Of a stretch of DNA of 64,000 nucleotides, positions 24,675-41,947 are shown piece by piece. Below the pieces are notes generated by a model. That model saw only the letters and a program-made list of their open reading frames with translations, made no database searches and was not told the DNA's origin. This stretch comes from a virus. The stretch is from IMG/VR virus record IMGVR_UViG_3300042890_005556; one strand, given 5' to 3'. Numbering within the stretch: position 1 is the first letter of the stretch; each line of letters begins with the position of its first letter. Both the position numbers and the translations under genes were made by a program.

Positions 24675-24678
24675 TTTA

Positions 24679-25200
24679 CTATCCCTGTGTGAATCTGTTA
24701 TATCTTACGGACATCTTGACTTCTGATAATTCATTATCAGCGTATGATAAGTCACCTGGATCATATGATCCAATTGAACAATCAAACAATTGGTACGTCA
24801 AATAGCCCAATCCTTTACCATCTTCACGAATAATGGTAGTGGTAAATCCATAACCACCAAAATCATTAGACTTGTAAAAGCTGCCTAATTCTTCACCAAG
24901 TGCATTGGGTAATTTTTTAAATATTAACCTGTTTACCATACTGTCATTGGTAGCAGTAAGAGCCTCGTAAAATACTATGTCAATAGGCTTATACTTGTAT
25001 TTGCCAGCCCTGTGTACGTAGTCAGCACCATTGTGGGCAATCATCTCGTCATATTCAATAGATGGTAATGTGATGCTTTTAACATTAAGTTCCATGTCTG
25101 TGTCTGCAAATGATATAACGACCTTAAATCTATGCTTTCTACCTACTTCCATCAGATTACTTGGGCCGGTGCCACTACCGTTAATATTGAATCCTGGCAT
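24679..25200 (-). CDS. tail tube protein paralog 2 (gp19-like)
   Basis: ITLPSI, AGKYKYKPIDIVFYE, YQLFDC...DLSY. Confidence 0.8.
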   Translation of the reverse strand: MPGFNINGSGTGPSNLMEVGRKHRFKVVISFADTDMELNVKSITLPSIEYDEMIAHNGADYVHRAGKYKYKPIDIVFYEALTATNDSMVNRLIFKKLPNALGEELGSFYKSNDFGGYGFTTTIIREDGKGLGYLTYQLFDCSIGSYDPGDLSYADNELSEVKMSVRYNRFTQG

Positions 25201-25213
25201 AGTCTTCTCTCAT

Positions 25214-25241
25214 ATAAAAATGGGGAGCATTCCTGCTCCCC
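25214..25241 (-). terminator. intrinsic terminator after the first tube gene
   Basis: GGGGAGCA-N4-TGCTCCCC stem followed by ATTTTTAT on the minus strand. Confidence 0.8.
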
Positions 25242-25252
25242 TCACATTATTA

Positions 25253-25786
25253 TCAGCTAGCTGTACGCAATGCTCTATCATACTTCATCGTAGCTTGGCA
25301 AGTCATCAAGTCATTGGCGCTATAATCTAGCTCCTGCCAATTAATTGTTTCTGGCCATGTACCGTACATTGTCCATGCTTCAGAGACCCCACCCTGGCCG
25401 TTTAACATCGTCAATTTGCCTTCTCTTTTATATTGAGAAGGATATGCGACATTGATCGATCCTAAATCGCAGACTGTGTTTAACCACTGATAAAGACCAG
25501 CCGAGATGTCTGGTGATTGTTCAGCGTCATACCATGTCAATGTGACCGGTTCCCATTCTTGCTTACCAGCGTAGTAAATGACTTCTTGGTTGTGGTGCTT
25601 ATCAGCAGAAGTAAACTTGAATGAAGGTCTTGCGGCTGATTGCAAGTTCAAAAGCTCTTCTGGCCTCCAAGCTCCACCGCCGCGACCAAGAGTAGCGAAA
25701 ACCCAGCGGTGTTTTCTTCTGATTTCAAGCGTATTCGTTGGACCGCGTCCGTCCCCACCAGCACCGGTTACGTTAAAACCTGGCAT
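25253..25786 (-). CDS. major tail tube protein (gp19-like)
   Basis: AARPS, YYAGKQEWEPVTLTWYD, YKREG.L.ML, W..YGTWP, LDYS, MKYDRA; directly follows the sheath gene. Confidence 0.9.
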   Translation of the reverse strand: MPGFNVTGAGGDGRGPTNTLEIRRKHRWVFATLGRGGGAWRPEELLNLQSAARPSFKFTSADKHHNQEVIYYAGKQEWEPVTLTWYDAEQSPDISAGLYQWLNTVCDLGSINVAYPSQYKREGKLTMLNGQGGVSEAWTMYGTWPETINWQELDYSANDLMTCQATMKYDRALRTAS

Positions 25787-28844: not shown

Positions 28845-29069
28845 TCATGCCTGCGAATTGCTATCAAAGACCACCTTAAGAAATCCACGCTTACACAAGT
28901 TCTCAATCTGATCCATCATGAGATGGTCTTTAGGTAACAAAGCATCTTTGCCTGGCGCTAACCTCACCTGGTTCTCATTAGTATAGAACTCAGTACCTGG
29001 AGGTCTAACTTGCAGAGAAATCATCTGGCGGCTGCAATTGTAAACTCTAATCTCGTCGGAAATAGCCAT
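28845..29069 (-). CDS. small tail/neck-region protein
   Basis: 74 aa between tail terminator and sheath; GAGG SD; resembles the N-terminus of the 39394 glycosyltransferase. Confidence 0.7.
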   Translation of the reverse strand: MAISDEIRVYNCSRQMISLQVRPPGTEFYTNENQVRLAPGKDALLPKDHLMMDQIENLCKRGFLKVVFDSNSQA

Positions 29070-29076
29070 GTGTGCC

Positions 29077-29916
29077 TCAGTTCAAAGGTTCTGACCAAAT
29101 AGTAGCATTGTACTGCGATGAAGGAGCAAGAGTATCACCAGATCTCTCACCAATAACACCAACAGTTCCCAATACTGTAGGTACTAACTTCGGCGGCAAA
29201 GGCAACCAAGCTTCAGCAGTAAAAGAAAACTCATACCTCACATTAGCCTGCTGATCAAACCCAGTCTCCTTATCACTAGCATCAGAGCCACCCTCAAACC
29301 TCAACTGCACATTACCAGCCAAATGAGCATCAAACATCCTGAACTCAGCTATGGGATTAAACCTAGTCGCGATCTGATAATTCACATACTCAGCATCACG
29401 CTTAAACTCAGTCCAGACTATCATAGAATACTTCACTAAAAAAGGCACAGGACGGTAATACTTAGCAGCAAGAGTACCAGCCTTGTTCATATATCTGAAA
29501 CTCATAGAATGATAAGTAGGACTAAACTTGTCTTGATTAAACTCAAAGCTCTCACGAGTAATAGCAGCCAAAGGCAATCTCACCCGACCCTCGTTTAAAT
29601 CATCAGCCCATATCAAAATGCTCTTATCACCACCCGAAATCTTCACACGCATGAATCTATAACTGTCTTTGGTCGGTACCCTAATACCTGAAAAATATTG
29701 TTTAATAGCATCATCCAAAGATCTAAACCCAGGCATTAAAAACTCTTCAAGATGATAAGGATACGTCTCTAAATCCTTACCACCAATGCCTGTTCTGCCA
29801 CCCTCAGAATGACTTGATTGCCTAACAGAAGGAATCTCAGCCAACCCCAAAGGTAAATCCCTGGTCGCTTCTGGTGACTTGATCGAGAAGTCAGAATTAA
29901 AATTATATGTCCCCAT
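29077..29916 (-). CDS. tail terminator / sheath stabilizer (gp15-like)
   Basis: LPLAAITR, RPVPF...Y...W......QI..RFNP, FTAEAWLP; upstream of the sheath gene. Confidence 0.75.
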   Translation of the reverse strand: MGTYNFNSDFSIKSPEATRDLPLGLAEIPSVRQSSHSEGGRTGIGGKDLETYPYHLEEFLMPGFRSLDDAIKQYFSGIRVPTKDSYRFMRVKISGGDKSILIWADDLNEGRVRLPLAAITRESFEFNQDKFSPTYHSMSFRYMNKAGTLAAKYYRPVPFLVKYSMIVWTEFKRDAEYVNYQIATRFNPIAEFRMFDAHLAGNVQLRFEGGSDASDKETGFDQQANVRYEFSFTAEAWLPLPPKLVPTVLGTVGVIGERSGDTLAPSSQYNATIWSEPLN

Positions 29917-29917
29917 G

Positions 29918-30217
29918 TTAAGACAGCTTTCCAATCACTACATTAGGGTCACGAAGAGTTTTTAGATAGGCCAAAGTAGATTCACTCAGCCTATCACGTT
30001 CTTCCTTAGTGAAAACCTGAGCATTGCCAACCACCTTGGCTTCCAAATTCAGAACACTATCGCTCACACTTCTAGGAGACTTCTCAAACTTCGGAGAATA
30101 GCCTAAATCCTTAAAATCAGCAGAAATATTCGCCGCAAGCTTATTAATAAGCCTATGGCTAGCAATGGCCAAAGCTTTCTTAATATTAGATTGATTCACG
30201 ATAAGCTCCATTAGCAT
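29918..30217 (-). CDS. hypothetical protein in the neck module
   Basis: ORF between the gp14-like and gp15-like genes. Confidence 0.55.
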   Translation of the reverse strand: MLMELIVNQSNIKKALAIASHRLINKLAANISADFKDLGYSPKFEKSPRSVSDSVLNLEAKVVGNAQVFTKEERDRLSESTLAYLKTLRDPNVVIGKLS

Positions 30218-30821
30218 GAACCTGAATCTCTTCAGCCATCGGAGGTAGTTCTGCGGGCCTCACAGCAATATCAGCATTCAACGTCTCTACATTACAGGTG
30301 AAATAAATCCAAGTGTATCGAAAATTCCCAGAAGGAGAAGCGTTTATGACCCTATAATTGCTCGGTGATCTGTCCTGCATAGCAGCATTGAATGGCAACT
30401 GGATCACATCTCCAGTACGCAGCATCCTGTCACCGAAGAGACCGTATATCTGTCGATGGCTAAAAACCACTTCTGCTTTATTGACAGAATCGGCACCCCA
30501 CTTCTTCAATTCAGTTTCTATGGGTGAAGGCTTAAAGAACGCCTTGAGCAGCTCAGAAGTCCAATAAGTGGGATCAGCATCTTCATCCCAAACCACATCA
30601 TAATCAGCGTTATCAGTGCGGACGAATACTTTCACTTCTGCGCCACTGATATTGATCATCTCATCAGCTAAAGTTCTAGCTGTCTTTATCTCAGGAGCTT
30701 CAGAATTAAAAATCGATAGGGACGAATTTTGTTTTTCCGTGTCTGATCTAAAGTCAGGAGCGGCTTCGTCAAACGAGCCCTGTGACCCAAGCATGTCAGA
30801 TCCAAACTGATAAATAGACAT
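30186..30821 (-). CDS. neck / head-closure protein (gp14-like)
   Basis: EMINISGAEV, D.VWDED, LKKWG.D, GDVI.LP pattern. Confidence 0.75.
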   Translation of the reverse strand: MSIYQFGSDMLGSQGSFDEAAPDFRSDTEKQNSSLSIFNSEAPEIKTARTLADEMINISGAEVKVFVRTDNADYDVVWDEDADPTYWTSELLKAFFKPSPIETELKKWGADSVNKAEVVFSHRQIYGLFGDRMLRTGDVIQLPFNAAMQDRSPSNYRVINASPSGNFRYTWIYFTCNVETLNADIAVRPAELPPMAEEIQVHANGAYRESI

Positions 30822-30849
30822 GAGAAACTCCCTCTGGAGTATCTTTAAA

Positions 30850-31347
30850 TTACGATTTTATCTGCCAAGGAGGGATTGGGGGCAATATGCCACCGAGAAG
30901 CAAACCAGCCTGCACATCAGTCACGTAGGGACTTTGTTCCGGGCTTGGTATGTCTTTAAAATCAGGAGAAGGACAAAAACCTGTATCATTCATTTTACAA
31001 TAATCAAAGCTCTCAGTCACAGTCTGATCTTCTACAGCCAAACTACGCAAAATCGCATAATAATCAATAAGATTATTACAAGGACAATCTCTAGATTGCT
31101 CTGGAAATACAAAGAACCTTGTTCTCCAGCCGCCCCTGCCCCAGTCTACCCCGTACTTAACATAAGACCCAGGTATCCCTGCAAGAGCATCCTTTAAAAC
31201 CACATAACCACTACCACATTTTAACTCATTTGCATAAGCATACGATAAAGTTCTGCTTGAGACATATGAAGTAGGCTCACACCCTGGCACAATCAGACGA
31301 TTGCCGGGCAATATTTCGATTTGGTGTGATTCAAAAACTTTTGACAT
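30850..31347 (-). CDS. hypothetical Cys-containing protein in the neck module
   Basis: 165 aa, AGGAG SD. Confidence 0.6.
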   Translation of the reverse strand: MSKVFESHQIEILPGNRLIVPGCEPTSYVSSRTLSYAYANELKCGSGYVVLKDALAGIPGSYVKYGVDWGRGGWRTRFFVFPEQSRDCPCNNLIDYYAILRSLAVEDQTVTESFDYCKMNDTGFCPSPDFKDIPSPEQSPYVTDVQAGLLLGGILPPIPPWQIKS

Positions 31348-31357
31348 CTCAGGCTCC

Positions 31358-32140
31358 TTACCACGTATGAACGCTTAGTGGTTCACCTAAGAGAATGGCC
31401 TCATTAATGATTTCTTTTTTCTTTTCTTCACCCTCGGTTACCAGTTCACCACCATCATAACTTATGCTTCCACCATCTGGTGTTGGCATACCATTGATTT
31501 TACGACGACCAGCGCCGAGAGCAATTCTGGCCTCTGCTGTCATCATTTCATAAGTGAGGTATCTTGCCTGCGGTGATCTAAAATGAGTCACAACTGGGAT
31601 GTATTGGACGACCACCGGAAAGGCACCCTTTGGCGTTGGGTATAGCCTTATTTTTTGATCTTTTGAAGAAAGGCTATCGCCGGTACCAGTGCCTGTTCCT
31701 TCATTGATCACTTCCCAGTGACCCTCAGTGCCAAGCACTTTTTGGGAGAATTTTCTATAAGCAGCAAGAAGATGGTAATCGACAAGTATGTTTTGGATGC
31801 CAGATATATTACCTATATTGAAAAGAAATGACTCCGCCCCGAACACGTCATCTATTCTGGTTGTAAGTGGGTCCCAATTACAAGATTGAATCCAATATGC
31901 ATCTGCAGGCATTGGATACGTATTTTTCAAAGGCGTTGTATAAAACATGGCCAGCTTTTGCTCGCGTGGAAAGTACCCCGCGATGAAATCACCGGCCACT
32001 TTAAAGATCGTTTCCCATTGATCTTCTTGAATTTCAACGGCAACATTCGGATAGCCAAGCTTAGATAACACGTATTTCTTACACGGGTCACTGTTTAACT
32101 TTAAGACAGAAGGTAAGTCTTGAGGCCCTATAATTGCCAT
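31358..32140 (-). CDS. neck / head-tail adaptor protein (gp13-like)
   Basis: YVLSKLGYPNVAVEI..DQ, IRLYPTP, G..R.K..G.P.P.G....DG..L..EG. Confidence 0.85.
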   Translation of the reverse strand: MAIIGPQDLPSVLKLNSDPCKKYVLSKLGYPNVAVEIQEDQWETIFKVAGDFIAGYFPREQKLAMFYTTPLKNTYPMPADAYWIQSCNWDPLTTRIDDVFGAESFLFNIGNISGIQNILVDYHLLAAYRKFSQKVLGTEGHWEVINEGTGTGTGDSLSSKDQKIRLYPTPKGAFPVVVQYIPVVTHFRSPQARYLTYEMMTAEARIALGAGRRKINGMPTPDGGSISYDGGELVTEGEEKKKEIINEAILLGEPLSVHTW

Positions 32141-32208
32141 GTTTTTCTCCTTTTTATAATTTGAGTAGACATAATAACAACTATCGGAGAATATATCATT
32201 TTGCGTTA

Positions 32209-32625
32209 TTATGTTTTAACGTTTTTGGGTGCTTTACCTTTTCCCTGACCACCACTTCTTTTCCTTTTAGCTGCATTTGCTTTTTCTTTGTCTGTCATAT
32301 CTGCGGCTTTTGCTGATGGCACGCATTTTGGATACTTCCTGTCTGGGTTATCAGCGTCTGGCCTCCCACATTCAGGGTGTTTGCCATCTTTCTTTGCGCC
32401 GATGTCTACCCATTTTTCATTAAACCATGTGCTTAGATCTTCATTCCAGCTTGCCTGCTTCTTGCCTTTGGAGTCAGGCTGTGTGCCTTTGCATACTTGT
32501 ACTGCATAACCATTAGCGTAGGCACTTGGGTATTTCTTGTATTTTCTTTTAGCGGCTTCTTTGCCACGCTTACACAGCTTCGTTTCTTCTATTAGCTTTT
32601 CATATTCAAGTGTAAAAGTTTTCAA
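32209..32625 (-). CDS. basic phage protein (PSAY / WFxEKWVD / CGR / YPKCVP family, DUF5872-like)
   Basis: Lys-rich; motifs YPSAYANG, WFNEKWVDI, ECGR and YPKCVP. Confidence 0.6.
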   Translation of the reverse strand: MKTFTLEYEKLIEETKLCKRGKEAAKRKYKKYPSAYANGYAVQVCKGTQPDSKGKKQASWNEDLSTWFNEKWVDIGAKKDGKHPECGRPDADNPDRKYPKCVPSAKAADMTDKEKANAAKRKRSGGQGKGKAPKNVKT

Positions 32626-32638
32626 ATCTCTGACCTTC

Positions 32639-33166
32639 TTATCTTGGGAAATGAAAACCTCTGTTTCCGAAGATTATGCCGCTGTAATCCAGCCTGTGGA
32701 CCTTTGCATTAGCGTATAACGGAAGGTTTGGCGATGCTATGACACTATCAAGCAAGGTCTTCAACGTCTTGACTTCTGCATTTATATAAGACTTTGGAAC
32801 ATTAACATGCGGTGCAAATAACGAACCAATGTTACCTTGATTAGCACTGAAGATATTAATATCTTCATTTGTAGCTAAGTTCTCAGATGATGAATGATAG
32901 AATCCAGTTATCATCAATTGGGCCGGGTAATCACCGAATTGTGGCTTTATTGCTGATCCAAATGCCATTTGGCTCATTGCAGAGTTATGGAAACCTGTTG
33001 TGCTATCGTATTGTCCACCGCCGGGAGCTGATATATTCAGATCACTTTCTTGGCTTAAGGCATCATAAAATTCGACGGCAAGTTTTTGCAGCGACCTTAT
33101 GTGTACAAACCGCTTGCCTTGGATTGGTGTGACGCTGATATGTGCAGTAAACGGAGTCCACTTCAT
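32639..33166 (-). CDS. hypothetical, probable virion protein
   Basis: 175 aa, GGAGG SD, candidate late promoter. Confidence 0.6.
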   Translation of the reverse strand: MKWTPFTAHISVTPIQGKRFVHIRSLQKLAVEFYDALSQESDLNISAPGGGQYDSTTGFHNSAMSQMAFGSAIKPQFGDYPAQLMITGFYHSSSENLATNEDINIFSANQGNIGSLFAPHVNVPKSYINAEVKTLKTLLDSVIASPNLPLYANAKVHRLDYSGIIFGNRGFHFPR

Positions 33167-33190
33167 CTTTCATTTCCTCCGTTTGTATTT

Positions 33191-33559
33191 TTAATCCCAA
33201 GTTATTTCTACTAATTCTTCGGGAATAACCTCTACGACATCCGAAGGCAACTTAAAACCATCAAACTCTACGTGCCAGTCATCTTCTTTCACATAAGCCA
33301 CTGTTCCTGAATCGTTTGCCTTGCACTTATAGCCTATACAGTGCACTATCTGAGGTTCAGCACCTAATTGCATTGCGACTCTGCGTCTATAGAAGACGAT
33401 CTGTCCCGGTTTTAGCTTTATTGTGAGTATTTTCTTAGTGGATGATGCTAATAAAGATATTTCTGTTAGATTATGTCTGCCCATCTTCTCGAATGGGACA
33501 CCACCCATTTGTGTCACGTATTGACCGTCTGCATATCTGGCAAGCCACACTAGTCGCAT
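33191..33559 (-). CDS. hypothetical protein
   Basis: 122 aa, GAGG SD. Confidence 0.6.
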   Translation of the reverse strand: MRLVWLARYADGQYVTQMGGVPFEKMGRHNLTEISLLASSTKKILTIKLKPGQIVFYRRRVAMQLGAEPQIVHCIGYKCKANDSGTVAYVKEDDWHVEFDGFKLPSDVVEVIPEELVEITWD

Positions 33560-33612
33560 TATGACCTCTCATAAAATTACCCCGCCATTTCTGGCGGAGC
33601 CATTTGTTCTCG

Positions 33613-33915
33613 TCAATAGGGGTAGAACGTATATTCTTCGAGATAATCGTGGCTGTTTATGGAGTCAAGAGCGCTATCAGCCGCTAATTTGGAAGCGTAT
33701 TCTTCGTCTGTCATCACATCCACAGAACAAACCCAAAGACAATATCCCTGTTTACCATGCCCATCGCAACTATGCACACCTACTGGTGTGTCGAATTCGA
33801 TACCAACTTGCTTCGCAGCACTGCTGGTGAGAACTACGACCGTCGCCTGAACCGGCGTTGGTGTGCCTTGACCAACAAGCCACATCCTATCACCTTTGCG
33901 AATCGTGCGTGCCAT
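33613..33915 (-). CDS. SH3/CAP-Gly-like small protein
   Basis: KGDRM...ATVV...VGIEFDTPVG.HSCDG.GK.GYC.W. Confidence 0.55.
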   Translation of the reverse strand: MARTIRKGDRMWLVGQGTPTPVQATVVVLTSSAAKQVGIEFDTPVGVHSCDGHGKQGYCLWVCSVDVMTDEEYASKLAADSALDSINSHDYLEEYTFYPY

Positions 33916-33932
33916 TGCTAATCCTCAGATTC

Positions 33933-34496
33933 TCAAGTTTCGTCGTAGAGCCACGTGAAGGTTGCAGATCCAGTAGCACCAGGCTGAGCAGTTGATCCAA
34001 CACTCAGCTGATAAACGACATAATTTCCAAACTGTGCTGGTGTAGCCGAACCAAAAGTGATCGATCCCGTTACCGGAAACGATGGCGAGCCACCAACGTT
34101 ATATACAAATGGGTCGGCAGGTGAAGCCAGCAATGCCGTATGATTAACAAGCGTTAATTGAGTACCGCTTGTTCCTACTGTACCCTCAGCTTGGTGATAT
34201 GTTGTAGACTGATTAAAAATAGCGGCCACACCAGTGCCAAAGTTATTGGCTCCGTTCGTGTACCATCGAATATTATTGATAGTACCTGCGGGATTAGTGT
34301 AAGCTATGAGGCGAGTTGAAACCCAGTAGCTGTAATTAGTGCCAGCTGCGGGAATACGAACTGGATTACTACTTGTTGTCGCCACAGAGTAATGGTTATC
34401 GTCAGCGTTAGCCACCGTATTGCCGCCGCTAATCTCAGCTGTAACCTGTGAGACGCCTGTATTCGTGATCCTAACTATACCAATATTCGCGGCCAT
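33933..34496 (-). CDS. probable virion structural protein (Gly/Thr/Ser-rich, beta)
   Basis: 187 aa, AAGGAGG SD, ends TFTWLYDET. Confidence 0.65.
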   Translation of the reverse strand: MAANIGIVRITNTGVSQVTAEISGGNTVANADDNHYSVATTSSNPVRIPAAGTNYSYWVSTRLIAYTNPAGTINNIRWYTNGANNFGTGVAAIFNQSTTYHQAEGTVGTSGTQLTLVNHTALLASPADPFVYNVGGSPSFPVTGSITFGSATPAQFGNYVVYQLSVGSTAQPGATGSATFTWLYDET

Positions 34497-34518
34497 TCAA
34501 TCCTCCTTTAGGCATATC

Positions 34519-34552
34519 AAAAAAGCAAGAAGGGGCACATTTGTGCCCCTTC
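34519..34552 (-). terminator. intrinsic terminator
   Basis: GAAGGGGCAC-N4-GTGCCCCTTC stem followed by TTGCTTTTTT on the minus strand. Confidence 0.8.
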
Positions 34553-34559
34553 ACTTTGA

Positions 34560-34973
34560 TTAGTCGACGTCAGCGTAGGCAGTCAGAGCTGTCTTGGCAT
34601 CGTTGAACAGATCATTTGCCAGAACGGTGGCAGAAGTGTTCTTGAGGAACCTGTCGCTACCGATTTGGAAAGCGAAGTCTTCACCCGTAATGTTTTCGAT
34701 ACCAGCAGTCAAGCTCAGTTGCTTGAACGTACCGACCACGATTGGAAATCCACGGCTGACACCAGCAGCAGCCTGGCCCATGTATGGGCTGAAATCCTTA
34801 GTAGCTGTGTCGCGCGTCAAGACACCTGCCGTAATTTCCGAGCCAGGTATCACAAGAACCAACGGACGCAGGTTCTTAATGATGGCCGCTACGGAGTCGT
34901 AACGAGAAATGTTACGGCGAGTTCTTAGCGTACGAAAGACCGAAATGCTGGTGTTTAATGGTTGTGCGGACAT
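34560..34973 (-). CDS. probable abundant virion protein
   Basis: 137 aa; has its own GGAGG SD, candidate late promoter and terminator. Confidence 0.65.
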   Translation of the reverse strand: MSAQPLNTSISVFRTLRTRRNISRYDSVAAIIKNLRPLVLVIPGSEITAGVLTRDTATKDFSPYMGQAAAGVSRGFPIVVGTFKQLSLTAGIENITGEDFAFQIGSDRFLKNTSATVLANDLFNDAKTALTAYADVD

Positions 34974-35022
34974 GATAAACCTCCGTTAGTATGTGCCCAA
35001 CAGTCAATTTATTTTTGCATAA

Positions 35023-35058
35023 TAAAAATAAGGCCCAGGTTCCTAAAAACCTGAGCCT
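35023..35058 (-). terminator. intrinsic terminator after the 35088 gene
   Basis: AGGCTCAGGTT-N6-AACCTGGGCCT followed by TATTTTTA on the minus strand. Confidence 0.7.
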
Positions 35059-35087
35059 AGAACAATCAATATATCAGATATGCTTGC

Positions 35088-35384
35088 TCACTCACAGGAA
35101 GCACAACCGACGTGCACCTTCTTCTTGAACAACCCACCAAGGAGACTTCGCTTAGCCTTATGAGGAACGGCCTCAACGACCTCTTCCTTATAACCAACAA
35201 CAACAGTCTCCTTCACAGTGATTTGCTTTTCACGAACCTCAGTGACAGGAACCCGTTTGATCAAAACAGGCTTCTTAACCACCACGGTCTCCTCGACATA
35301 TGCAACGGAATACTGAGGACAGCAATCACCAGCTACAGCAGTCGAGGAACCAGCCAACAGCAGCAATGCAGCAAAACTCTTCAT
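35088..35384 (-). CDS. small exported Cys/Val-rich protein
   Basis: Signal peptide MKSFAALLLLAGSSTAVA, then DCCP, V/K/E-rich beta segments and terminal GCASCE; AGGAG SD. Confidence 0.7.
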   Translation of the reverse strand: MKSFAALLLLAGSSTAVAGDCCPQYSVAYVEETVVVKKPVLIKRVPVTEVREKQITVKETVVVGYKEEVVEAVPHKAKRSLLGGLFKKKVHVGCASCE

Positions 35385-35456
35385 GGGTATCTCCTAAAAT
35401 GTCGTGAAACATCAATCAACTGGTCTCACTGAAAATATAATACTAGGAAAAAACAC

Positions 35457-36002
35457 ATGAAACTAATACAAATATCTGAAGCTAAAGATGCCCACATAAT
35501 AAAACACCAAAGCGAAGCCATAGGAAAGTTAAAAACCTACATAACGAAATATAAAAACCAAAAAGCGATGAAAGCGATAGAGAAAATATTCAGTGATCCG
35601 GATATCAGCACTTGGAAACAAAACTCCTGGATAGTCACCGACACGATCAATAACCTAGAAAAAGATCAAAAAATAAATCAAACAGAAAAACAGAGTGCCA
35701 TAGCACAGCTTAAAACTGTACTGACAACACCACCAGCAATTATAATATCATCACTTTATAGCATTCCTAAAGAACAATTAAAAGATACTGCTCTCAAAAA
35801 CTTAAATCTAAGCCCCTCCGAAAACAAAAGACTTAAAAAGGGCTTAGGACCTCAAGGATATATCGCAGCGTTATCCTCAGCAGACAATATGCGAAGTAGC
35901 ACCTTAAAGAAAACGCTATTAGACATTTCCAAAAACAGCGACTCAACATCTCAATCAATAAGACAGTCAATACCAGGCGTTAATATCGTCAAAGACTTCT
36001 AA
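35457..36002 (+). CDS. Lys-rich hypothetical protein (possible internal head protein)
   Basis: 181 aa, AGGA SD, N-terminus MKLIQISE. Confidence 0.65.
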   Translation: MKLIQISEAKDAHIIKHQSEAIGKLKTYITKYKNQKAMKAIEKIFSDPDISTWKQNSWIVTDTINNLEKDQKINQTEKQSAIAQLKTVLTTPPAIIISSLYSIPKEQLKDTALKNLNLSPSENKRLKKGLGPQGYIAALSSADNMRSSTLKKTLLDISKNSDSTSQSIRQSIPGVNIVKDF

Positions 36003-36540
36003 ATATTTCTCTAAGATCATCAATATTAATGCCTTCAAAATCTATATAAGCATGGTTATTGCATTTCATAAACAGAAAAAGCATGTCAACCTCTTGTATC
36101 CTATCAGGCATCCCCACAATATCAAAACCGAGTACCTTGCTGAAATCATGTAACGACTTACGGCGAGCATCATCGAATATCTCATAAATGAAAGATTCTT
36201 CCTCATTCATAAAGCTGCGATAAATGCGGTATAATTTATAAGCACAAACTGGGTCGGGCCTGTTAGTATTAAAACTGCCATGAAATTCATACCTAGATCT
36301 GAATATCTCAAGATTTTTGTATAAATCATAGTCCTCAAGACACACTATCGGCTCGCACTCATATGCGATCGATAATTTTGATCTAAAATCAAAAGTCCTT
36401 CGCGCGATATAAGATTCACAATCATCCGCAAATCGTAGTTTGTCGCCAACAGCCAAAACATCATCGTGTTTTAAAGTGATGAAAAAACTGACGAAATCTT
36501 TGTTCGTCTCTATTGTTATGCAAACACAGCTTTCATTCAT
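35989..36540 (-). CDS. hypothetical protein
   Basis: GGAG SD before MNESCVC. Confidence 0.55.
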   Translation of the reverse strand: MNESCVCITIETNKDFVSFFITLKHDDVLAVGDKLRFADDCESYIARRTFDFRSKLSIAYECEPIVCLEDYDLYKNLEIFRSRYEFHGSFNTNRPDPVCAYKLYRIYRSFMNEEESFIYEIFDDARRKSLHDFSKVLGFDIVGMPDRIQEVDMLFLFMKCNNHAYIDFEGINIDDLREIFRSL

Positions 36541-36605
36541 ACTTGCATCTCCATTTAGTGTTACCACGATATGTAATTAAAATACATCATCAAACGGCGA
36601 GAAAA

Positions 36606-36911
36606 ATGGAAGAAAATCAGACCATAACACTAAAAAGACGAGTCTCGACAGACTTTATAGAGTCACTGCCACAAGATATACTGGACATTAACGTTAAAAT
36701 GTATCTGGTGGTAAAAAGAAAGCCAACCCAAGACTGTGAATATGGCGTAGACGCTAGAATAGATCCATGCGAACTAAACCTCAAAAATAAAACCATTAGC
36801 TTCACCATCAATAAGAAATATAATCCGGGCATAGAGTCTTTTGATGATCTAGAACCAACATTTTTTGAATCAGCACAAGCAGCATTCACAATTTTTTGCT
36901 ATTCATTGTGA
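36606..36911 (+). CDS. hypothetical protein
   Basis: 101 aa from MEENQT; fills the gap between minus-strand genes. Confidence 0.5.
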   Translation: MEENQTITLKRRVSTDFIESLPQDILDINVKMYLVVKRKPTQDCEYGVDARIDPCELNLKNKTISFTINKKYNPGIESFDDLEPTFFESAQAAFTIFCYSL

Positions 36912-37644
36912 TAACCTTTGGCTTCACATTCAAGAACCTGCTTGGCCTCACCGCATAATCCTCAGATCTACACCAAAAAGCAGTGGTGTAAACAGACACA
37001 GTAAGCTGAGCCAGATAAATACCCAATAACCTTTCTACAAATTTTTCCGTCCACATACCAGTATCTCGCACTTTCATCTTCTCAACCACAAGCAATAGTT
37101 TATAACCCAAAACATCCAACACCTGCCTAGTGCACATAAATTGACAATCGATAATCATCCTGGGCTTGGAATCAAAAGCGTAATTATATGCTTCGGCATC
37201 GTATTTCCGAATCATATCCCAAATGTGGGTATTCACATCAAAAGAATTCTCTGAGTACAGATCAAAATAGCGGAAATCATCAGTCAGCACCAGGTCGTTA
37301 TTAGACTTAAGACATGACGCTATGCCAAGTGACGTGTCCTCATCAATGACCTCCAATAGCCCATCCCAAGTCTCGCTAGCGCTCCTCTGCATCATTGACC
37401 GACCATTCAAAAATGCAACATGGTTGTTTCCTATTAATTGATCAGCATGCTCCCAAACAGTGAGAATAGTGCTCGCGTTGCCTATCACAGAGCTCCATGC
37501 AGAATATGTTGGGTAAAAATCTGACTTGGCTATATAATCAGCATCTACGTTAAAGTCGTCAGATATTTTTATATCTTCTACAGCGTCATGTTGTTCGATC
37601 TCTCGAAACCCTTCCGAATCCGAGAATCTTATTAGTTTTATCAT
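36886..37644 (-). CDS. GT-A-like protein, DUF4422-like (divergent)
   Basis: HVAFLNGR, CQFMCTRQVLD and FVERLLGIYL resemble the DUF4422 motifs (..F..R / NMFI / ERL); last gene of the GT cluster. Confidence 0.45.
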   Translation of the reverse strand: MIKLIRFSDSEGFREIEQHDAVEDIKISDDFNVDADYIAKSDFYPTYSAWSSVIGNASTILTVWEHADQLIGNNHVAFLNGRSMMQRSASETWDGLLEVIDEDTSLGIASCLKSNNDLVLTDDFRYFDLYSENSFDVNTHIWDMIRKYDAEAYNYAFDSKPRMIIDCQFMCTRQVLDVLGYKLLLVVEKMKVRDTGMWTEKFVERLLGIYLAQLTVSVYTTAFWCRSEDYAVRPSRFLNVKPKVITMNSKKL

Positions 37645-38465
37645 TTTGATATCAGCCCTGAATATTTCACACCCAAAACCTGTACTTCTATCCCATCATC
37701 CGATTTGAGCCTGAATCCAATTTGGCTAGACACCTCTCCAAATAGATTCCAATTCATGTGCGTTGTCAATAGCTCTGGAAATGCGGCGCTCCATTTTGTA
37801 TACAAGTATCTAAGAATCTTCCAATATTTGTTATTCTTTCCCATGCTAGTGGAATACTTACCATAGTGTATAATAGGAATGTCTGCAGAATAAACATTAT
37901 ATCCAGCCTTCCTAGCCTGCAGACTGTAGTCAATACCATAAAAATGAAATCCATCTAAACTCTCATCGAACTTTAATTTTATATCTTTTGATACAGCAAA
38001 AAAGCATTCGTCTATACAGTGTACTGCTGTTGCCTCTTTTACCCCATTCCAATATGGCACTTTGCTCACAAATTCGTCATCATCATTATAAACAGTACCA
38101 ACAGCTAGCTTTTGATTTATTTGTGTCTTGCCACCCCAGCTACCTATATCAAGAGATCCATATTTTAGATCAATCCCAGCTGCACCTATAATTTTAGTAT
38201 CCTTAGTCAATAATTTATCTAATTTTTCTAAGCTCCCTGGCAGCAACGCAATGTCTTGGTGGGCATATATTATGTAGTCTCCTCTAGCCACTTCTCTACC
38301 AGCATTTAAAGCCTGGCTAGCATTGTAAATTCCACTATAATTAAATATTGGAACGTATTCAATGTCTAGTCTTTTTTGCTTCTTTATCGACTTCAGAAGA
38401 CAATCATTAAAAATCTCTTTGTCACTTATACAGCAAACCACCGAATATTTTATGCTCTTCTTCAA
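37641..38465 (-). CDS. glycosyltransferase family 2-like
   Basis: SVVCC, ALNAG...ARGDYIIYAHQD, IDECFF, FDE..GFHFYGIDYSLQ. Confidence 0.85.
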   Translation of the reverse strand: MKKSIKYSVVCCISDKEIFNDCLLKSIKKQKRLDIEYVPIFNYSGIYNASQALNAGREVARGDYIIYAHQDIALLPGSLEKLDKLLTKDTKIIGAAGIDLKYGSLDIGSWGGKTQINQKLAVGTVYNDDDEFVSKVPYWNGVKEATAVHCIDECFFAVSKDIKLKFDESLDGFHFYGIDYSLQARKAGYNVYSADIPIIHYGKYSTSMGKNNKYWKILRYLYTKWSAAFPELLTTHMNWNLFGEVSSQIGFRLKSDDGIEVQVLGVKYSGLISK

Positions 38466-39397
38466 TTGATCATTCCATCAGCTTCTTGATGATACCCAAG
38501 ACCGCGCAATAACGTAGCACACCTGTGGTGATAAGTATGATTATTTAACACTTCTTCCTTTTGTTTTCGAGCAACGTCTTTTGCAAGATCTGGGTTACTC
38601 AAATATCGCCCGACTAAGTTTTTATAATCCTGAGCGTCTCTAGCCACCACCATTGATGGGATCATGGCTTTAATACTAGGAACAGGATCATGTATCGCTA
38701 GGACTCCTGATAAAGCTAACTTGAAAGCTCTCTCAGGTATGTCAAACCCAAATTGTTGAGTGTGTGCTTCCGATATGCATGGACCTATCTTACCGGTATT
38801 CAGAAATTGATTTGACTGATCTTCTGGTAGTCTTTCGACTTCGTGCTTCGAGGGCCATTCTCCCCAACCTTTAATAGAACATTGGTAAGTGTCAAGAACC
38901 GGCATTAGGTACTCGTCTATCGTTTTGGCCTTATACGGCCATCTGCCCCCAAGGTATACTATATCATTATGCCGCAATAAACCAAGATCATAATATTGCA
39001 ATCTATCACCAGCTACAGGCATCGGAACCCAAGGTATACAAAATACCGTTACCCAATACGACCAAATAATCGCGTCATTTTTTGAACCATACCCAAACAC
39101 TAAGTCAGCTTTGTTACTGACCACCCACTCTTTATCAGCATCACTCTCGTTAATATGGCCTATATCAATAGGCCCGTATGGATTAACATGTATGGCTACT
39201 TTCGCCCTTCTAATATTTGGTATAGGCTCTTTATGCCCAGAACAGCCAATATACACATCTGGATCAAAGCTTGACCACTGCGCTAGGTCACCAGTATATC
39301 TCTGTATCTCGTGCCCTTTATCGGCGAACGCACTCATCAGAGAGTCTGTTATATAACCCCATGCACCACCTACTCTTTTATTCATTAAGATCTTCAA
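38462..39397 (-). CDS. GT-B glycosyltransferase (CgeB/GT4-like)
   Basis: DIVYLGG, GWGEW, ERAFKLALSG, C-terminal VLNNHTYHHR. Confidence 0.85.
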   Translation of the reverse strand: MKILMNKRVGGAWGYITDSLMSAFADKGHEIQRYTGDLAQWSSFDPDVYIGCSGHKEPIPNIRRAKVAIHVNPYGPIDIGHINESDADKEWVVSNKADLVFGYGSKNDAIIWSYWVTVFCIPWVPMPVAGDRLQYYDLGLLRHNDIVYLGGRWPYKAKTIDEYLMPVLDTYQCSIKGWGEWPSKHEVERLPEDQSNQFLNTGKIGPCISEAHTQQFGFDIPERAFKLALSGVLAIHDPVPSIKAMIPSMVVARDAQDYKNLVGRYLSNPDLAKDVARKQKEEVLNNHTYHHRCATLLRGLGYHQEADGMIN

Positions 39398-41313
39398 CAG
39401 TTCACCATTCCTGTTACTTGGGAAATCTGTAACTCAATTCTTTGACGAATTGTAAGCTCTTTTAGTTTATCATGTATGGCTTTGTTTTGATCATGATGCT
39501 GATACCATCCCTCAGATCTACCATGATGAAGATGCAGAAGATTGTACGTTCTATTGTCTAGATATTTTGACCCTCCCGACATTCTTTCATAAAAATCACA
39601 ATCTTCACACCCGTAACCCCAAAAATCCTCGTTAAATCCGCCTACTTTCCAATAAGCATCCTTTGTACATGCCAAAGAGCCTCCCTCATAATATCCAACA
39701 ACACGCTCAAACACAGGATCTGATACTTCTCCAGAACTATTAATGCGATCAGTGCTCGCCTTATCCGTGTACACTACAGTAGACCCCAGATGACAAGACT
39801 CATAATTGTCCAGCACAGCACTTACTTCAGATGCATATCCATTTATAGCAAGCATGTCAGCATCATGTAAGATTATCTTATTGCTTGTAGCTTTGGAAAC
39901 ACCAAGATTAAACGCTTTGGCTTTATTGAAAGAATGTTCCTCTGCAACATTGACTTTATAATATCTTATTGGTTCATATTGCGACACATCTATTTTTTGA
40001 GTCTGGTCTTCTTCTACTAATATTATCTCTATGTCTGGGTATTTTTGGGCTCTTATATTATTCAGTACTGTGTTTAGAGAACCAGTCCGTTCCTGCTCTC
40101 TAAAAGGAACTATAAATGTGACCTTTGGAATACACGAATCTTCAGTGAAATCATGCTTTAATTTTTTTAGACTGTCGTATTTGTCACGAGCAGATTTTAG
40201 ACACTCATTCTTGTCGTCTATTGAAGTACTTTCTTTATGCAATTTAATATATGATTCACTGCTATGGAGATCATAGTAACCTTCTTTCTGCATTTTATTT
40301 GCATAGGCTCTAGAAGACCATTCTATATGTTCTAGACCATAATATCCAAAATCTTCGTTGAATGCTCCAACAGCACGAAAATACTCGTTTGTAAAAGCCA
40401 ACAGTGCACCATGCGGTCTGTCGTTGACTACATTTAACTGCACTCCATTTACAACAGTACTCATCCCTTTATCTGCACCATATATTCCGGCCTGTCTAAA
40501 AACGAGATGGTGCATCATCGATTTTTTTAAACCATCAGCATAAAAATATTCCCAACCAGGCTTCAATATCTCTATATCGTCATTTAACAAAATACCGTAT
40601 TGAAATCTGCTTAAAGCACGTAGTAATCTGTTTGAGTTTCCAGCCACCCCAAGTCTAACATTGTTTTTTATGACCACAATGTTCGATTGTTCACGTAATT
40701 CTTCTAAGTATGCGATTAATTCTGGGTCCGTGCTACAATCGTCACTGACAAATACAGTCGTAGAATTTAAGTTAGTGTTTTTGTTTATACTGTCAATGAG
40801 ACGCTCTAACGAGTCTTTCCTGTTGTAAGATAATATGCCCACTCCTATATTGTTGCTGATTGGATATAGACCCTTACTGTTTTTTATCAAACCAACAGCT
40901 GTTCGTTGTATTTTGATTTTTTCATCTTCCGAAACCTGCTTACCTACGATCTTATCGACTGATTTTTGGGCTTGTACTGGCTGTCGTGTATTCTGCCTGC
41001 TGCCAATAATTGTGCGTCGCTGAGGCTGAGGCTGAGGCTGAGGCTTAGGCTGCCTATGATGCTGCATCAACGGAGTTATTACTGGTTTTGTTGGCGTGTT
41101 GACTGTTTCGACTTTTTCGACTTTTTGGCTTATGATTGGTGTGGACGGTTTTAATGTTTCATTGTTATTCAGATTTATTAAAAATCCTCTCTGCCGGTAA
41201 ATCTCATAATATGCAGGAAGATTCACTATTTGCCTACTCTTGATCTTAACTATTTGTCCTTCTGGACCAGTTATATGCACTGTGTGATGGTGCGGGTTTT
41301 GGTATTCTGGCAT
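39394..41313 (-). CDS. tandem two-domain GT2 glycosyltransferase with an extra N-terminal domain and a Pro/Gln linker
   Basis: Domain 1: ILSYNR, SDDCSTD, LLNDDI, FGYYGLEH. Domain 2: IVPFR, FNKAKAFNLG, LHDADM, GGFNEDFWGYGCEDCDF. Start MPEYQN after AGGAG. Confidence 0.9.
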   Translation of the reverse strand: MPEYQNPHHHTVHITGPEGQIVKIKSRQIVNLPAYYEIYRQRGFLINLNNNETLKPSTPIISQKVEKVETVNTPTKPVITPLMQHHRQPKPQPQPQPQRRTIIGSRQNTRQPVQAQKSVDKIVGKQVSEDEKIKIQRTAVGLIKNSKGLYPISNNIGVGILSYNRKDSLERLIDSINKNTNLNSTTVFVSDDCSTDPELIAYLEELREQSNIVVIKNNVRLGVAGNSNRLLRALSRFQYGILLNDDIEILKPGWEYFYADGLKKSMMHHLVFRQAGIYGADKGMSTVVNGVQLNVVNDRPHGALLAFTNEYFRAVGAFNEDFGYYGLEHIEWSSRAYANKMQKEGYYDLHSSESYIKLHKESTSIDDKNECLKSARDKYDSLKKLKHDFTEDSCIPKVTFIVPFREQERTGSLNTVLNNIRAQKYPDIEIILVEEDQTQKIDVSQYEPIRYYKVNVAEEHSFNKAKAFNLGVSKATSNKIILHDADMLAINGYASEVSAVLDNYESCHLGSTVVYTDKASTDRINSSGEVSDPVFERVVGYYEGGSLACTKDAYWKVGGFNEDFWGYGCEDCDFYERMSGGSKYLDNRTYNLLHLHHGRSEGWYQHHDQNKAIHDKLKELTIRQRIELQISQVTGMVNC

Positions 41314-41314
41314 A

Positions 41315-41947
41315 CTATCTCCTAATTTCCACGTACAATGGTGCAAAATTTATTGGATCGTCGTCATTCAGTCTGAACCTACTTGGTCTTATTAATAGAT
41401 TCCCCTCATAAGACCCTTGCCCCTGAATGATAGCGTCAATGACTGATGGGTTTAGTATCACTGTATTTTTTGTCTTTAAAGTATTCACGAGCTTTCCAAA
41501 GACATCCTCTATAAGCCCCGGGCTCACACATTTGTTTAAGGATGTCCTCACATCTACTAACGTCAGAATATCACCAGCAATACTAAAATGATATTGTGCT
41601 TGCTCTATCTTTATGACGTTCATTAATCTAACATAGTTGACTAACTCATCCTTCACGAATTTTCTGCTAGTAATTCCAAGCGGTGTCACGTCAGATTCTA
41701 ATTCTATAAGATTACCAGCAGCATCGGAAAAAACAGTGTAGACATCATCCTTCTGGGTGTCTCGATAAATCAGAACAGTGAGATCAACATCGCCAGGGTG
41801 TTTTTGGACATAGCAATATATATGTTCTAATCTTTTTAGTTCTGTGTGGTCGTAGTACTTGGGGTAAGGCAGGACTTTTGGTACTTTAAATGTACCAGAC
41901 TGTGACGTTATGGACGTAGTCGTGTTGGCTGATCGCAAAGACGCCAT
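41315..41947 (-). CDS. hypothetical protein, possibly a degenerate ligase/nucleotidyltransferase fold
   Basis: YVQKHPG, TLVDV and EGNLLIRP weakly echo ligase motifs I, IIIa and IV. Confidence 0.4.
   Translation of the reverse strand: MASLRSANTTTSITSQSGTFKVPKVLPYPKYYDHTELKRLEHIYCYVQKHPGDVDLTVLIYRDTQKDDVYTVFSDAAGNLIELESDVTPLGITSRKFVKDELVNYVRLMNVIKIEQAQYHFSIAGDILTLVDVRTSLNKCVSPGLIEDVFGKLVNTLKTKNTVILNPSVIDAIIQGQGSYEGNLLIRPSRFRLNDDDPINFAPLYVEIRR

What the first reader, a model, noticed from the sequence alone, without database searches (positions are those of the whole stretch)
28845..41313. Candidate virion-targeted glycosylation system: a glycosyltransferase fused to a copy of a small tail/neck protein
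Seen: the first ~48 aa of the tandem GT (41313 to ~41170; PEYQN...VHITGPEG..VKIKSRQIVNLP..EIYRQRGFL) align with the standalone 74-aa protein encoded between tail terminator and sheath (28845-29069; RVYN...ISLQVRPPG..VRLAPGKDALLP..ENLCKRGFL). The V-to-LP spacing is identical (12 aa) and both contain ExxxxRGFL. In the GT this domain is joined to the catalytic domains by a long Pro/Gln/Thr linker, and three more GT-like genes follow in the same operon. Inference: the small domain is a virion-docking module that tethers the GT to assembling particles, so that the phage glycosylates its own virion rather than its DNA.
Basis: partly seen in the sequence, partly recalled or inferred. Interest (0 to 1): 0.85.

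Follow-up and report, generated by a model that had tools for sequence, protein, structure and literature searches.

The report
Tethered N-module on a phage glycosyltransferase
A large uncultured phage carries a sugar-adding enzyme whose small, flexibly tethered front module is probably a distant, cut-down relative of a small protein encoded beside the tail-sheath gene, which hints at, but does not show, an enzyme aimed at the phage's own particle.

Summary
The coordinates, gene order and quoted motifs are correct. As a pairwise match the resemblance is at chance level: BLASTP finds nothing, the Smith-Waterman shuffle P is 0.34, and shared 4-mers are common. The quoted 'LP' and 'E' are not conserved in relatives.

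The picture changed once I collected relatives. The 74-aa protein belongs to a widespread small phage family (127 clusters). It always lies between the gp15-like gene and the sheath gene. The N-module of the glycosyltransferase (GT) is conserved in about 20 distinct phage GTs, all with the same build. No column shuffle out of 500 reached that score. In 19 of 19 more distant relatives found, a second paralogue of the small family sits inside the GT cluster, often just upstream of an extra GT gene.

Against a true 'copy', the module lacks the family's most conserved residues. No structure comparison was possible.

My reading is that this is a real tether or targeting module, with remote homology at about 0.6. 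Virion docking and virion glycosylation remain untested inference. The scan had already noted this GT operon on the same DNA.

The parts
28845..29069 (-). 74-aa small protein, 'type A' member of a widespread unnamed phage family. Predicted fold is four strands, a helix and a fifth strand.
   Evidence: ORF. The exhaustive profile search gave 127 clusters at E<=1e-3, nearly all 60-170 aa. The gp15-like, small gene, sheath order is kept in relatives down to 36% identity. The AF2 model has pLDDT 82. There is no Pfam or PHROG match and no clear fold match.
29077..29916 (-). T4 gp15-like tail sheath stabiliser / tail completion protein, the upstream neighbour of the small gene
   Evidence: PF16724, E 1e-6. 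Homologues start at the equivalent ATG.
25882..28773 (-). Tail sheath protein (963 aa), the downstream neighbour of the small gene
   Evidence: PF17482, PF04984 and PF22671. It matches the sheath genes of many myophages.
41170..41313 (-). N-terminal module of the GT (residues 1-48), MPEY[IQ]NP ... RG[FY][IL]
   Evidence: It is conserved in about 20 distinct sequences, always at the extreme N-terminus of the same tandem GT. Invariant residues are M1, P2, E3, Y4, N6, P7, V12, L32, Y39 and G43. hhalign against the small family gives P 2.8e-5. The AF2 model from 4 sequences has only pLDDT 51.
40864..41169 (-). Low-complexity linker rich in Pro, Gln, Thr and Lys (about residues 49-150)
   Evidence: Conservation is 0.33-0.39 against 0.6-0.8 in the flanks. 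Length is 102-157 aa among relatives. P, Q, S, T, A, K, R and N make up 53-74% of it.
40204..40863 (-). First GT-A catalytic domain (GT2, about residues 151-370)
   Evidence: PF00535, E 3e-18. S190-D191-D192 and N244-D245-D246 are invariant in 21 sequences. The best matches among sequenced phages are mycobacteriophage GTs at 24% identity.
39394..40125 (-). Second GT-A catalytic domain (GT2-like with a Glyco_transf_7C signature, residues 397-639)
   Evidence: PF10111 and PF02709. It matches the beta-1,4-galactosyltransferase signature region in the PDB. D484-A485-D486 and E570-D571-C572 are invariant.
38462..39397 (-). Glyco_trans_1_2-type GT (311 aa), overlapping the stop of the fusion gene
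   Evidence: PF13524, E 7.5e-17. It is kept next to the fusion in every relative.
37641..38465 (-). Glyco_tranf_2_5-type GT (274 aa)
   Evidence: PF13712, E 9e-19. It is kept in most relatives and was not found in L014.
36886..37644 (-). 252-aa conserved cluster member of unknown function. It matches no known GT family.
   Evidence: No Pfam, PHROG or PDB match. Its homologue (the '270' gene) follows Glyco_tranf_2_5 in relatives.
41315..41947 (-). 210-aa conserved protein of unknown function directly upstream of the fusion, probably co-translated with it
   Evidence: Its stop lies one base before the GT start. Its homologue (the '204up' gene) precedes the fusion in all relatives where that side is present. 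It has no family match.

Best explanation
The 639-aa protein is the lead enzyme of a conserved glycosylation gene cluster in a lineage of large, uncultured aquatic T4-like phages. It has three parts:
- a conserved N-terminal module of about 48 aa;
- a disordered linker of 100-160 aa;
- two GT-A catalytic domains with intact metal-binding (DxD-type) motifs.

The N-module is most likely a very old, shortened relative of the C-terminal strand-strand-helix-strand half of a small phage protein family. One member of that family (the 74-aa protein) is always encoded between the gp15-like tail-completion gene and the sheath gene. In most relatives, though not in this window, a second member is encoded inside the GT cluster itself.

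I read the module as an anchor. It would bind a phage-encoded partner, and the long linker would let the two catalytic domains reach acceptors nearby. That makes a phage protein or assembly intermediate the most likely acceptor.

Shown here:
- the domain architecture and its conservation;
- the intact catalytic motifs;
- the profile-level similarity;
- the gene contexts.

Inferred, not shown:
- common ancestry (about 0.6);
- partner binding;
- the identity of the partner;
- protein or virion as the acceptor.
For: Profile similarity:
- The hhalign score rises with the depth of the N-module alignment: 12.6 (4 sequences), 17.9 (5 sequences) and 26.3 (14 sequences; P 2.8e-5, probability 74%).
- The session's own tool gives P 2.1e-4 and 2.7e-4.
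- The column-shuffle null has mean 9.55, sd 2.2 and maximum 24.7. None of 500 shuffles reaches the observed score.
- Odd/even and near/far halves of the family give the same register, at P 1e-5 to 1e-4.
- N-modules outside the window's clade, compared with the distant half of the family, give P 4.3e-5.

Reciprocal search:
- With the N-module HMM, the top 12 of 544 small ORFs are all family members, and 40 of the top 50 are.
- 91% of family members beat the median of their own shuffles. 44% beat all ten shuffles, where 9% is expected.

Secondary structure:
- The predicted elements occur in the same order under the alignment.

Gene context:
- A paralogue (B; hhalign against the family, probability 98%, P 1e-13) lies at one fixed place inside the GT cluster in all 19 IMG/VR loci found.
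- In 11 of those 19 it lies directly upstream of an extra GT2 gene.

Architecture:
- The module is conserved while the linker is variable and low-complexity.
- The same build is found in all 9 proteins scanned.

Acceptor:
- The catalytic motifs are invariant.
- No thymidylate-synthase-family (hydroxymethylase) gene occurs in five related partial genomes.
- The nearest phage GTs come from mycobacteriophages, a group in which virion glycosylation has been described (PMC12363180, PMC11256854).
Against: Homology:
- The aligned stretch is short (33-42 columns, 21-24% identity) and needs a 6-residue deletion.
- That deletion removes Q54, the family's most conserved residue after N11. D27/F28 and Q15 have no counterpart either.
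- hhalign probabilities of 42-82% are not decisive.
- Paralogue B does not bridge the gap: B against the N-module gives P 0.15.
- The exhaustive search with the family profile found no GT. The family HMM ranks the GT ORF 227th of 259 window ORFs.
- The N-module model has low confidence (pLDDT 51), so no fold comparison was possible.

Function:
- There is no evidence that the 74-aa protein is a virion component. Its fold matches nothing informative.
- The relatives are kin, so the 19 loci with B may reflect a single ancestral arrangement.
- The similarity to mycobacteriophage GTs is weak (24%). Che8's own GTs barely match.
Confidence: 0.4

Rival explanations
1. The resemblance is convergent or coincidental. 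The N-module is an unrelated small domain, for example an oligomerisation, membrane or host-envelope targeting module. The GT cluster would then build or modify a glycan that has nothing to do with the tail-module protein, such as a host surface polysaccharide or another phage product.
For: - Pairwise comparison is at chance level.
- The family's hallmark residues are missing from the module.
- hhalign probability stays below 85%.
- One of 500 shuffles reached 24.7, against the observed 26.3.
- The exhaustive family search recovered no GT.
- The shared pattern, a beta hairpin, a short helix and a basic-Gly-aromatic-aliphatic strand, is simple.
Against: - The same register holds in independent halves and in an out-of-sample clade at P about 4e-5.
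- Family members are strongly enriched at the top of the reciprocal HMM search.
- A bona fide family paralogue lies inside the GT cluster of relatives, which chance does not predict.
Confidence: 0.25
2. The small-domain family is an accessory or activator subunit of glycosyltransferases rather than a virion anchor. Paralogue B would act in trans on its neighbouring GT and the N-module in cis on the fusion. The tail-module member (the 74-aa protein) would have a separate role, or would mark a tail protein as an acceptor.
For: - In 11 of 19 loci, B lies directly upstream of a GT2 gene and is co-oriented with it.
- The domain is fused to a GT in the fusion protein.
Against: - A poorly conserved disordered linker of 100-160 aa is typical of a tether to something external, not of a subunit packed on its own catalytic domain.
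- B is present without the extra GT2 gene in 8 of 19 loci.
- The window's clade lacks B altogether.
Confidence: 0.15
3. The cluster glycosylates phage DNA as an anti-restriction hypermodification, and the N-module targets the enzyme to DNA or to the replication machinery.
For: - The cluster directly follows the replication and recombination genes on the same strand: gp32-like, 5'-3' exonuclease, PDDEXK nuclease, RecA, DnaB and polymerases.
- DNA glycosylation is the best-known role of phage GTs (as reviewed in PMC12619734).
Against: - No thymidylate-synthase-family hydroxymethylase gene occurs in 655 kb of five related partial genomes.
- The enzymes are GT-A (GT2, GT7C-like), with their nearest phage relatives in mycobacteriophages.
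- Another first-stage note, unchecked, reports a purZ-type base-replacement module elsewhere in this genome.
- All of this is indirect, and the genomes are incomplete.
Confidence: 0.1

Closest known systems
Mycobacteriophage virion glycosylation (Che8, Corndog, Myrna; Freeman et al. 2023, as cited in PMC12363180, PMC11256854 and PMC12619734)
   Same: Both are phage-encoded clusters of several GT-A type glycosyltransferases. 357 of the 363 phage records that match the first catalytic domain are mycobacteriophages. In that system the acceptor is the phage's own capsid and tail tube.
   Different: Identity is only about 24%. Che8 gp108-110 themselves match weakly or not at all (best E 0.003). I found no description of an N-terminal tethered module or an associated small-protein family in that system. 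The host and phage type also differ: an aquatic T4-like myophage here, actinobacterial siphophages there.
Animal polypeptide GalNAc-transferases (a GT-A catalytic domain joined by a flexible linker to a lectin domain that steers site choice); recalled from general knowledge, not tested here
   Same: A GT-A catalytic unit is joined by a flexible linker to a small non-catalytic module that would decide where the enzyme acts.
   Different: The module here is N-terminal, about 48 aa, and unrelated in sequence to ricin-type lectins. No ligand is known for it. This is an analogy of design only.
Chlorovirus PBCV-1 multi-domain glycosyltransferase that decorates the major capsid protein (reviewed in PMC7019647; details recalled, not tested)
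   Same: A virus-encoded enzyme with several catalytic domains in one chain that acts on the virus's own structural protein.
   Different: No sequence relation was tested. That enzyme has no tethered docking module of this kind, and the virus is eukaryotic.
T4 alpha- and beta-glucosyltransferases and other DNA-hypermodifying phage GTs
   Same: They are phage-encoded GTs placed near the DNA metabolism genes.
   Different: Those act on hydroxymethylated bases. No hydroxymethylase-family gene was found in five related partial genomes. The domain families here are GT2, GT7C-like, Glyco_trans_1_2 and Glyco_tranf_2_5.

Membership tests
Small phage protein family of the 74-aa ORF (unnamed; no Pfam or PHROG model) | The 74-aa ORF itself matches the family profile over its full length. 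| tested here: met
   The family HMM scores the ORF at E 1e-35. The search gave 127 clusters at E<=1e-3.
Small phage protein family of the 74-aa ORF | The GT N-module carries the family's near-invariant residues: N11 (97%), Q15 (90%), D27 (83%), F28 (87%), Q54 (97%) and L58 (93%). | tested here: not met
   Q54 falls in a 6-residue deletion. D27/F28 and Q15 have no counterpart. Only N6 may correspond to N11, and Y39 to L58.
Small phage protein family of the 74-aa ORF | The GT N-module shares the C-terminal basic-Gly-hydrophobic-[IL] strand and the hydrophobic pattern before it. | tested here: met
   The family has R/K 72%, G 71%, then M/F/L/I, then I/L 98%. The module has R95, G100, F/Y100 and I/L100.
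Small phage protein family of the 74-aa ORF | Significant profile-profile similarity between the GT N-module and the family. | tested here: inconclusive
   hhalign gives P 1e-5 to 2.7e-4 and probability 42-82% over 33-42 columns. 0 of 500 shuffles reach the score. The profile-to-sequence searches are not significant on their own.
Small phage protein family of the 74-aa ORF | Same three-dimensional fold. | tested here: inconclusive
   The 74-aa model has pLDDT 82. The N-module model, built from 4 sequences, has pLDDT 51. The order of secondary-structure elements agrees, but no superposition was possible.
GT2 / GT-A glycosyltransferases (PF00535, PF10111, PF02709) | Both catalytic domains match the family above the curated cut-off. 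| tested here: met
   PF00535 scores 66.6 bits (cut-off 23.3), PF02709 55 bits (23) and PF10111 48.7 bits (27.3).
GT2 / GT-A glycosyltransferases | The acidic metal- and nucleotide-binding motifs (DxD type) are conserved. | tested here: met
   SDD 190-192, NDD 244-246, DAD 484-486 and EDC 570-572 are invariant in 21 sequences.
Mycobacteriophage virion-glycosylation system | The GTs are orthologous to the Che8 or Corndog enzymes needed for capsid glycosylation. | tested here: not met
   Che8 gp108 gives E 0.41, gp110 E 0.038 (in the linker only) and gp109 E 0.003. The better matches are to other cluster F/I GTs at 24% identity.
Mycobacteriophage virion-glycosylation system | Glycans are attached to the capsid or tail subunits. 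| not testable with these tools
   This needs virions. The phage is known only from metagenomes.
DNA-glycosylating phage systems (T4 type) | A base hydroxymethylase of the thymidylate synthase family supplies the acceptor. | tested here: inconclusive
   There is no PF00303 match in five related records, but those are only 25-49% complete. The window's own genome is not held.

The most novel reading that the evidence does not exclude
The small-protein family is a dedicated recruitment system for a phage glycosylation machine. One member (A) would be built into, or bound to, the top of the tail next to gp15 and the sheath. A second member (B) would serve the other GTs of the cluster. A cut-down third copy, fused by a long leash to the tandem GT, would bind the same site or pair with A or B. 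The enzymes would thus be concentrated on assembling particles and glycosylate virion proteins. This would be the first virion-targeted glycosylation apparatus outside the actinobacteriophages, and the first with a defined docking module.
Probability: 0.2. Interest if true: 0.8.

Novelty: new variant of a known kind. Interest (0 to 1): 0.55.

Why it matters
Phage-encoded glycosylation of the phage's own proteins is known from only a few mycobacteriophages. How such enzymes find their targets is not known. Here a whole lineage of large aquatic phages keeps a multi-GT cluster with three notable features:
- its lead enzyme carries a leash-and-anchor module;
- a small-protein family is linked to the cluster in two ways, by fusion and by adjacency;
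- that family's main member is a fixed part of the tail gene module.

If the anchor idea holds, it gives a testable mechanism for targeting post-translational modification to virions. It would also assign a function to a widespread family of small phage proteins (127 clusters) that so far has no annotation. If it does not hold, the work still defines two new conserved domains and a conserved gene cluster.

Tried and rejected
- **Similarity to sequenced phages.** A near-identity DNA search of the region found nothing. The 74-aa protein has no tblastn match in 50,697 phage records.
- **Family libraries.** Pfam at E<=10 and PHROGs give nothing for either small segment.
- **ESM Atlas.** It gave only unnamed viral clusters. 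The same DUF7444-labelled cluster was the nearest named one for both queries, at a score of 0.75-0.76, which is noise level.
- **Standalone N-module.** A search for shorter, standalone forms of the GT N-module found none.
- **Fold searches with the 74-aa model.**
  - Foldseek against the PDB gave a best E of 0.07 (GINS B-domain).
  - Foldseek against BFVD gave a best E of 0.046, with a DUF2635 protein at rank 6.
  - All are at noise level.
- **Structure of the N-module.** It was predicted too early, from 4 near-identical sequences (pLDDT 51).
- **Complex prediction.** I ran gp15-like plus the 74-aa protein plus the N-module as partner. It gave no verdict (score 0.00, below the mark), after eight refusals by a busy machine. 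This is no evidence either way.
- **Paralogue B as a bridge.** It does not link the family to the N-module (P 0.15).
- **Context of distant family members.** The contigs were too short to show it.
- **Long 'hits' of the family profile.** The hits of 347-2289 aa with several short matched stretches are repeat or low-complexity artefacts such as Rib domains.
- **The window's own genome.** It is not held, so genome-wide checks were impossible.
- **Literature.** Searches found no described docking module on a phage GT. The Freeman et al. paper itself is not in the library.

Full report
**What is in the window.** All genes of the region lie on the minus strand.
- The 74-aa ORF (28845-29069) lies between a T4 gp15-like tail sheath stabiliser (PF16724) and a 963-aa sheath gene.
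- About 10 kb upstream, directly after the replication and recombination genes, lies a run of overlapping genes.
  - A 210-aa unknown.
  - The 639-aa GT, which starts at the ATG at 41313. AGGAGA lies 7 nt before it, and the start is one base after the upstream stop.
  - A Glyco_trans_1_2 gene.
  - A Glyco_tranf_2_5 gene.
  - A 252-aa unknown.
- The GT has two GT-A domains. Residues 155-370 match PF00535. Residues 397-620 match PF10111 and PF02709, with the beta-1,4-galactosyltransferase signature.
- The phage has no close sequenced relative.

**The observation as stated.**
- The quoted letters are all there, but the pairwise match is not above chance.
  - BLASTP gives no alignment.
  - The best Smith-Waterman alignment is a different one (SRQMISL against SRQIVNL), and its score is ordinary for shuffles (P 0.34).
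  - The 74-aa protein shares 23 exact 4-mers with other ORFs of the window, so one shared RGFL is expected.
  - That was only at P 0.05-0.08, with a shuffle P of 0.12.
  - A family HMM ranked the GT ORF 227th of 259.
- At that point I considered the similarity refuted.

**Why I changed my mind.**
- More sequences on the small-protein side:
  - An exhaustive profile search showed that the 74-aa protein belongs to a large family of small phage proteins. It gave 127 clusters at E<=1e-3, nearly all 60-170 aa.
- More sequences on the N-module side:
  - A GT at 41% identity in a more distant contig keeps the module.
  - Pattern scans of IMG/VR and JGI metagenomes then gave about 20 distinct N-modules.
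  - Each sits at the extreme N-terminus of the same tandem GT.
- The hhalign score against the family then rose stepwise: 12.6, then 17.9, then 26.3 (P 2.8e-5, probability 74%). The session tool gave P 2.1e-4 and 2.7e-4.
- Controls:
  - None of 500 column shuffles reached the score (mean 9.55, sd 2.2, maximum 24.7).
  - The reversed alignment scored 9.3.
  - Odd, even, near and far halves of the family all gave the same register at P 1e-5 to 1e-4.
  - N-modules outside the window's clade, against the distant half of the family, gave P 4.3e-5. That comparison uses none of the sequences on which the idea was formed.
  - In the reciprocal search with the N-module HMM, the 12 best of 544 small ORFs were all family members.
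  - 91% of members beat the median of their own shuffles.
- The predicted secondary-structure elements occur in the same order under the alignment. The N-module model is of low confidence, however.

**Limits of the similarity.**
- Only 33-42 columns align, at 21-24% identity.
- The family's strongest residues (Q54 97%, F28 87%, D27 83%, Q15 90%) are deleted or unmatched in the module.
- What is shared is the hydrophobic pattern of two strands plus the basic-Gly-aromatic-[IL] strand.
- I therefore put common ancestry at about 0.6. I do not file the module as a member of the family.
- If the two are related, the fusion is ancient and fixed, not a recent copy.

**Gene context, a second line of evidence.**
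- The type A gene keeps its place, gp15-like then small gene then sheath, in every relative examined, down to 36% identity.
- Each of five large related contigs also holds a second, divergent paralogue, B. hhalign of B against the family gives probability 98% and P 1e-13.
- B lies inside the GT cluster, on the opposite strand, between the Glyco_trans_1_2/220-aa genes and Glyco_tranf_2_5.
- A scan for B found 19 IMG/VR loci, all with this same placement. In 11 of them B lies directly upstream of an extra, co-oriented GT2 gene.
- The domain family is thus tied to these GTs once by adjacency and, if the homology is real, once by fusion.
- Caveats:
  - The contigs are kin, so this may be one ancestral arrangement.
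  - The window's own clade has lost the 220-aa gene, B and the extra GT2.
  - The B HMM finds only the 74-aa gene in the window.

**How it most likely works.**
- The N-module is as conserved as the catalytic domains (0.57-0.74).
- The following 102-157 residues are poorly conserved (0.33-0.39), variable in length and made up 53-74% of P, Q, S, T, A, K, R and N.
- That is the build of an anchor on a leash.
- Both catalytic domains keep invariant acidic motifs, so both are probably active.
- I infer that the module binds a phage-encoded partner and holds the tandem enzyme near its acceptors.
- The partner is unknown, and nothing here shows that the 74-aa protein is in the virion.
- The acceptor is also unknown. 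Three hints lean away from DNA glycosylation:
  - no thymidylate-synthase-family hydroxymethylase in five related, incomplete genomes;
  - the nearest phage GTs come from mycobacteriophages, where virion glycosylation is described (PMC12363180, PMC11256854);
  - an unchecked first-stage note of a purZ-type module elsewhere in this genome.
- The position of the cluster, right after the replication genes, leans the other way.

**Comparison with what is known.**
- The cluster works most like the mycobacteriophage virion-glycosylation genes, but it is not orthologous to them.
- The leash-and-module design recalls animal polypeptide GalNAc-transferases. That is an analogy from general knowledge only.
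- I found no description of a docking module on a phage GT.

**Verdict.**
It is wrong as a pairwise match and right at profile level.
A tethered module is confirmed and remote kinship is plausible. Virion docking and virion glycosylation remain untested.
- This is a new variant of a known kind.
- The same GT operon had already been noted by the scan on this same DNA.

Noticed in passing
L024:4001-7024 (IMGVR_UViG_3300033072_001097): One orthologue of the tandem GT is 1008 aa long because an intein-like insertion (PF14890, about residues 633-930) interrupts its second catalytic domain. The tblastn match is split accordingly.
   Followed up: partly
L002:6386-8446 and L003:8646-10706: In one relative, a 686-aa DUF723 gene on the opposite strand is inserted between the small gene and the sheath gene. 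Two roughly 490-aa Mom-family (PF25680) genes also lie in the same tail module. These look like mobile or modification genes invading a conserved structural operon.
   Followed up: no
window 57114-58778: A 554-aa ORF among the split DnaE pieces has a weak Mom-family match at its C-terminus (E 6e-5, below the cut-off). Another first-stage note makes the same point.
   Followed up: no
window 24141-25786: Three tandem paralogous ORFs of about 175 aa, each starting MPGFN/MAGFN, lie directly after the sheath gene. Relatives show weak T4 gp19 tube-family hits at the same place.
   Followed up: no
window 33933-34496: A 187-aa protein rich in Thr, Ser, Gly, Asn and Ala lies between the GT cluster and the neck genes and has no family match. 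It is a possible surface or decoration protein, and so a conceivable acceptor. Its match to the B HMM is noise (E 1.4).
   Followed up: partly
BFVD hit A0A8S5NV23, against the model of window 28845-29069: A DUF2635 protein from a myovirus is among the weak fold matches of the 74-aa model (E 0.09, TM 0.55/0.49). From memory, DUF2635 genes of Mu-like phages also lie just before the sheath gene. This could be an analogous small gene, but I did not test it.
   Followed up: no
L014:1281-9132 (IMGVR_UViG_3300033066_000991): In this relative, only the fusion and the Glyco_trans_1_2 gene were found before the tail module. There was no Glyco_tranf_2_5 or '270' homologue. The core of the cluster may therefore be just the upstream 210-aa gene, the fusion and Glyco_trans_1_2.
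   Followed up: partly
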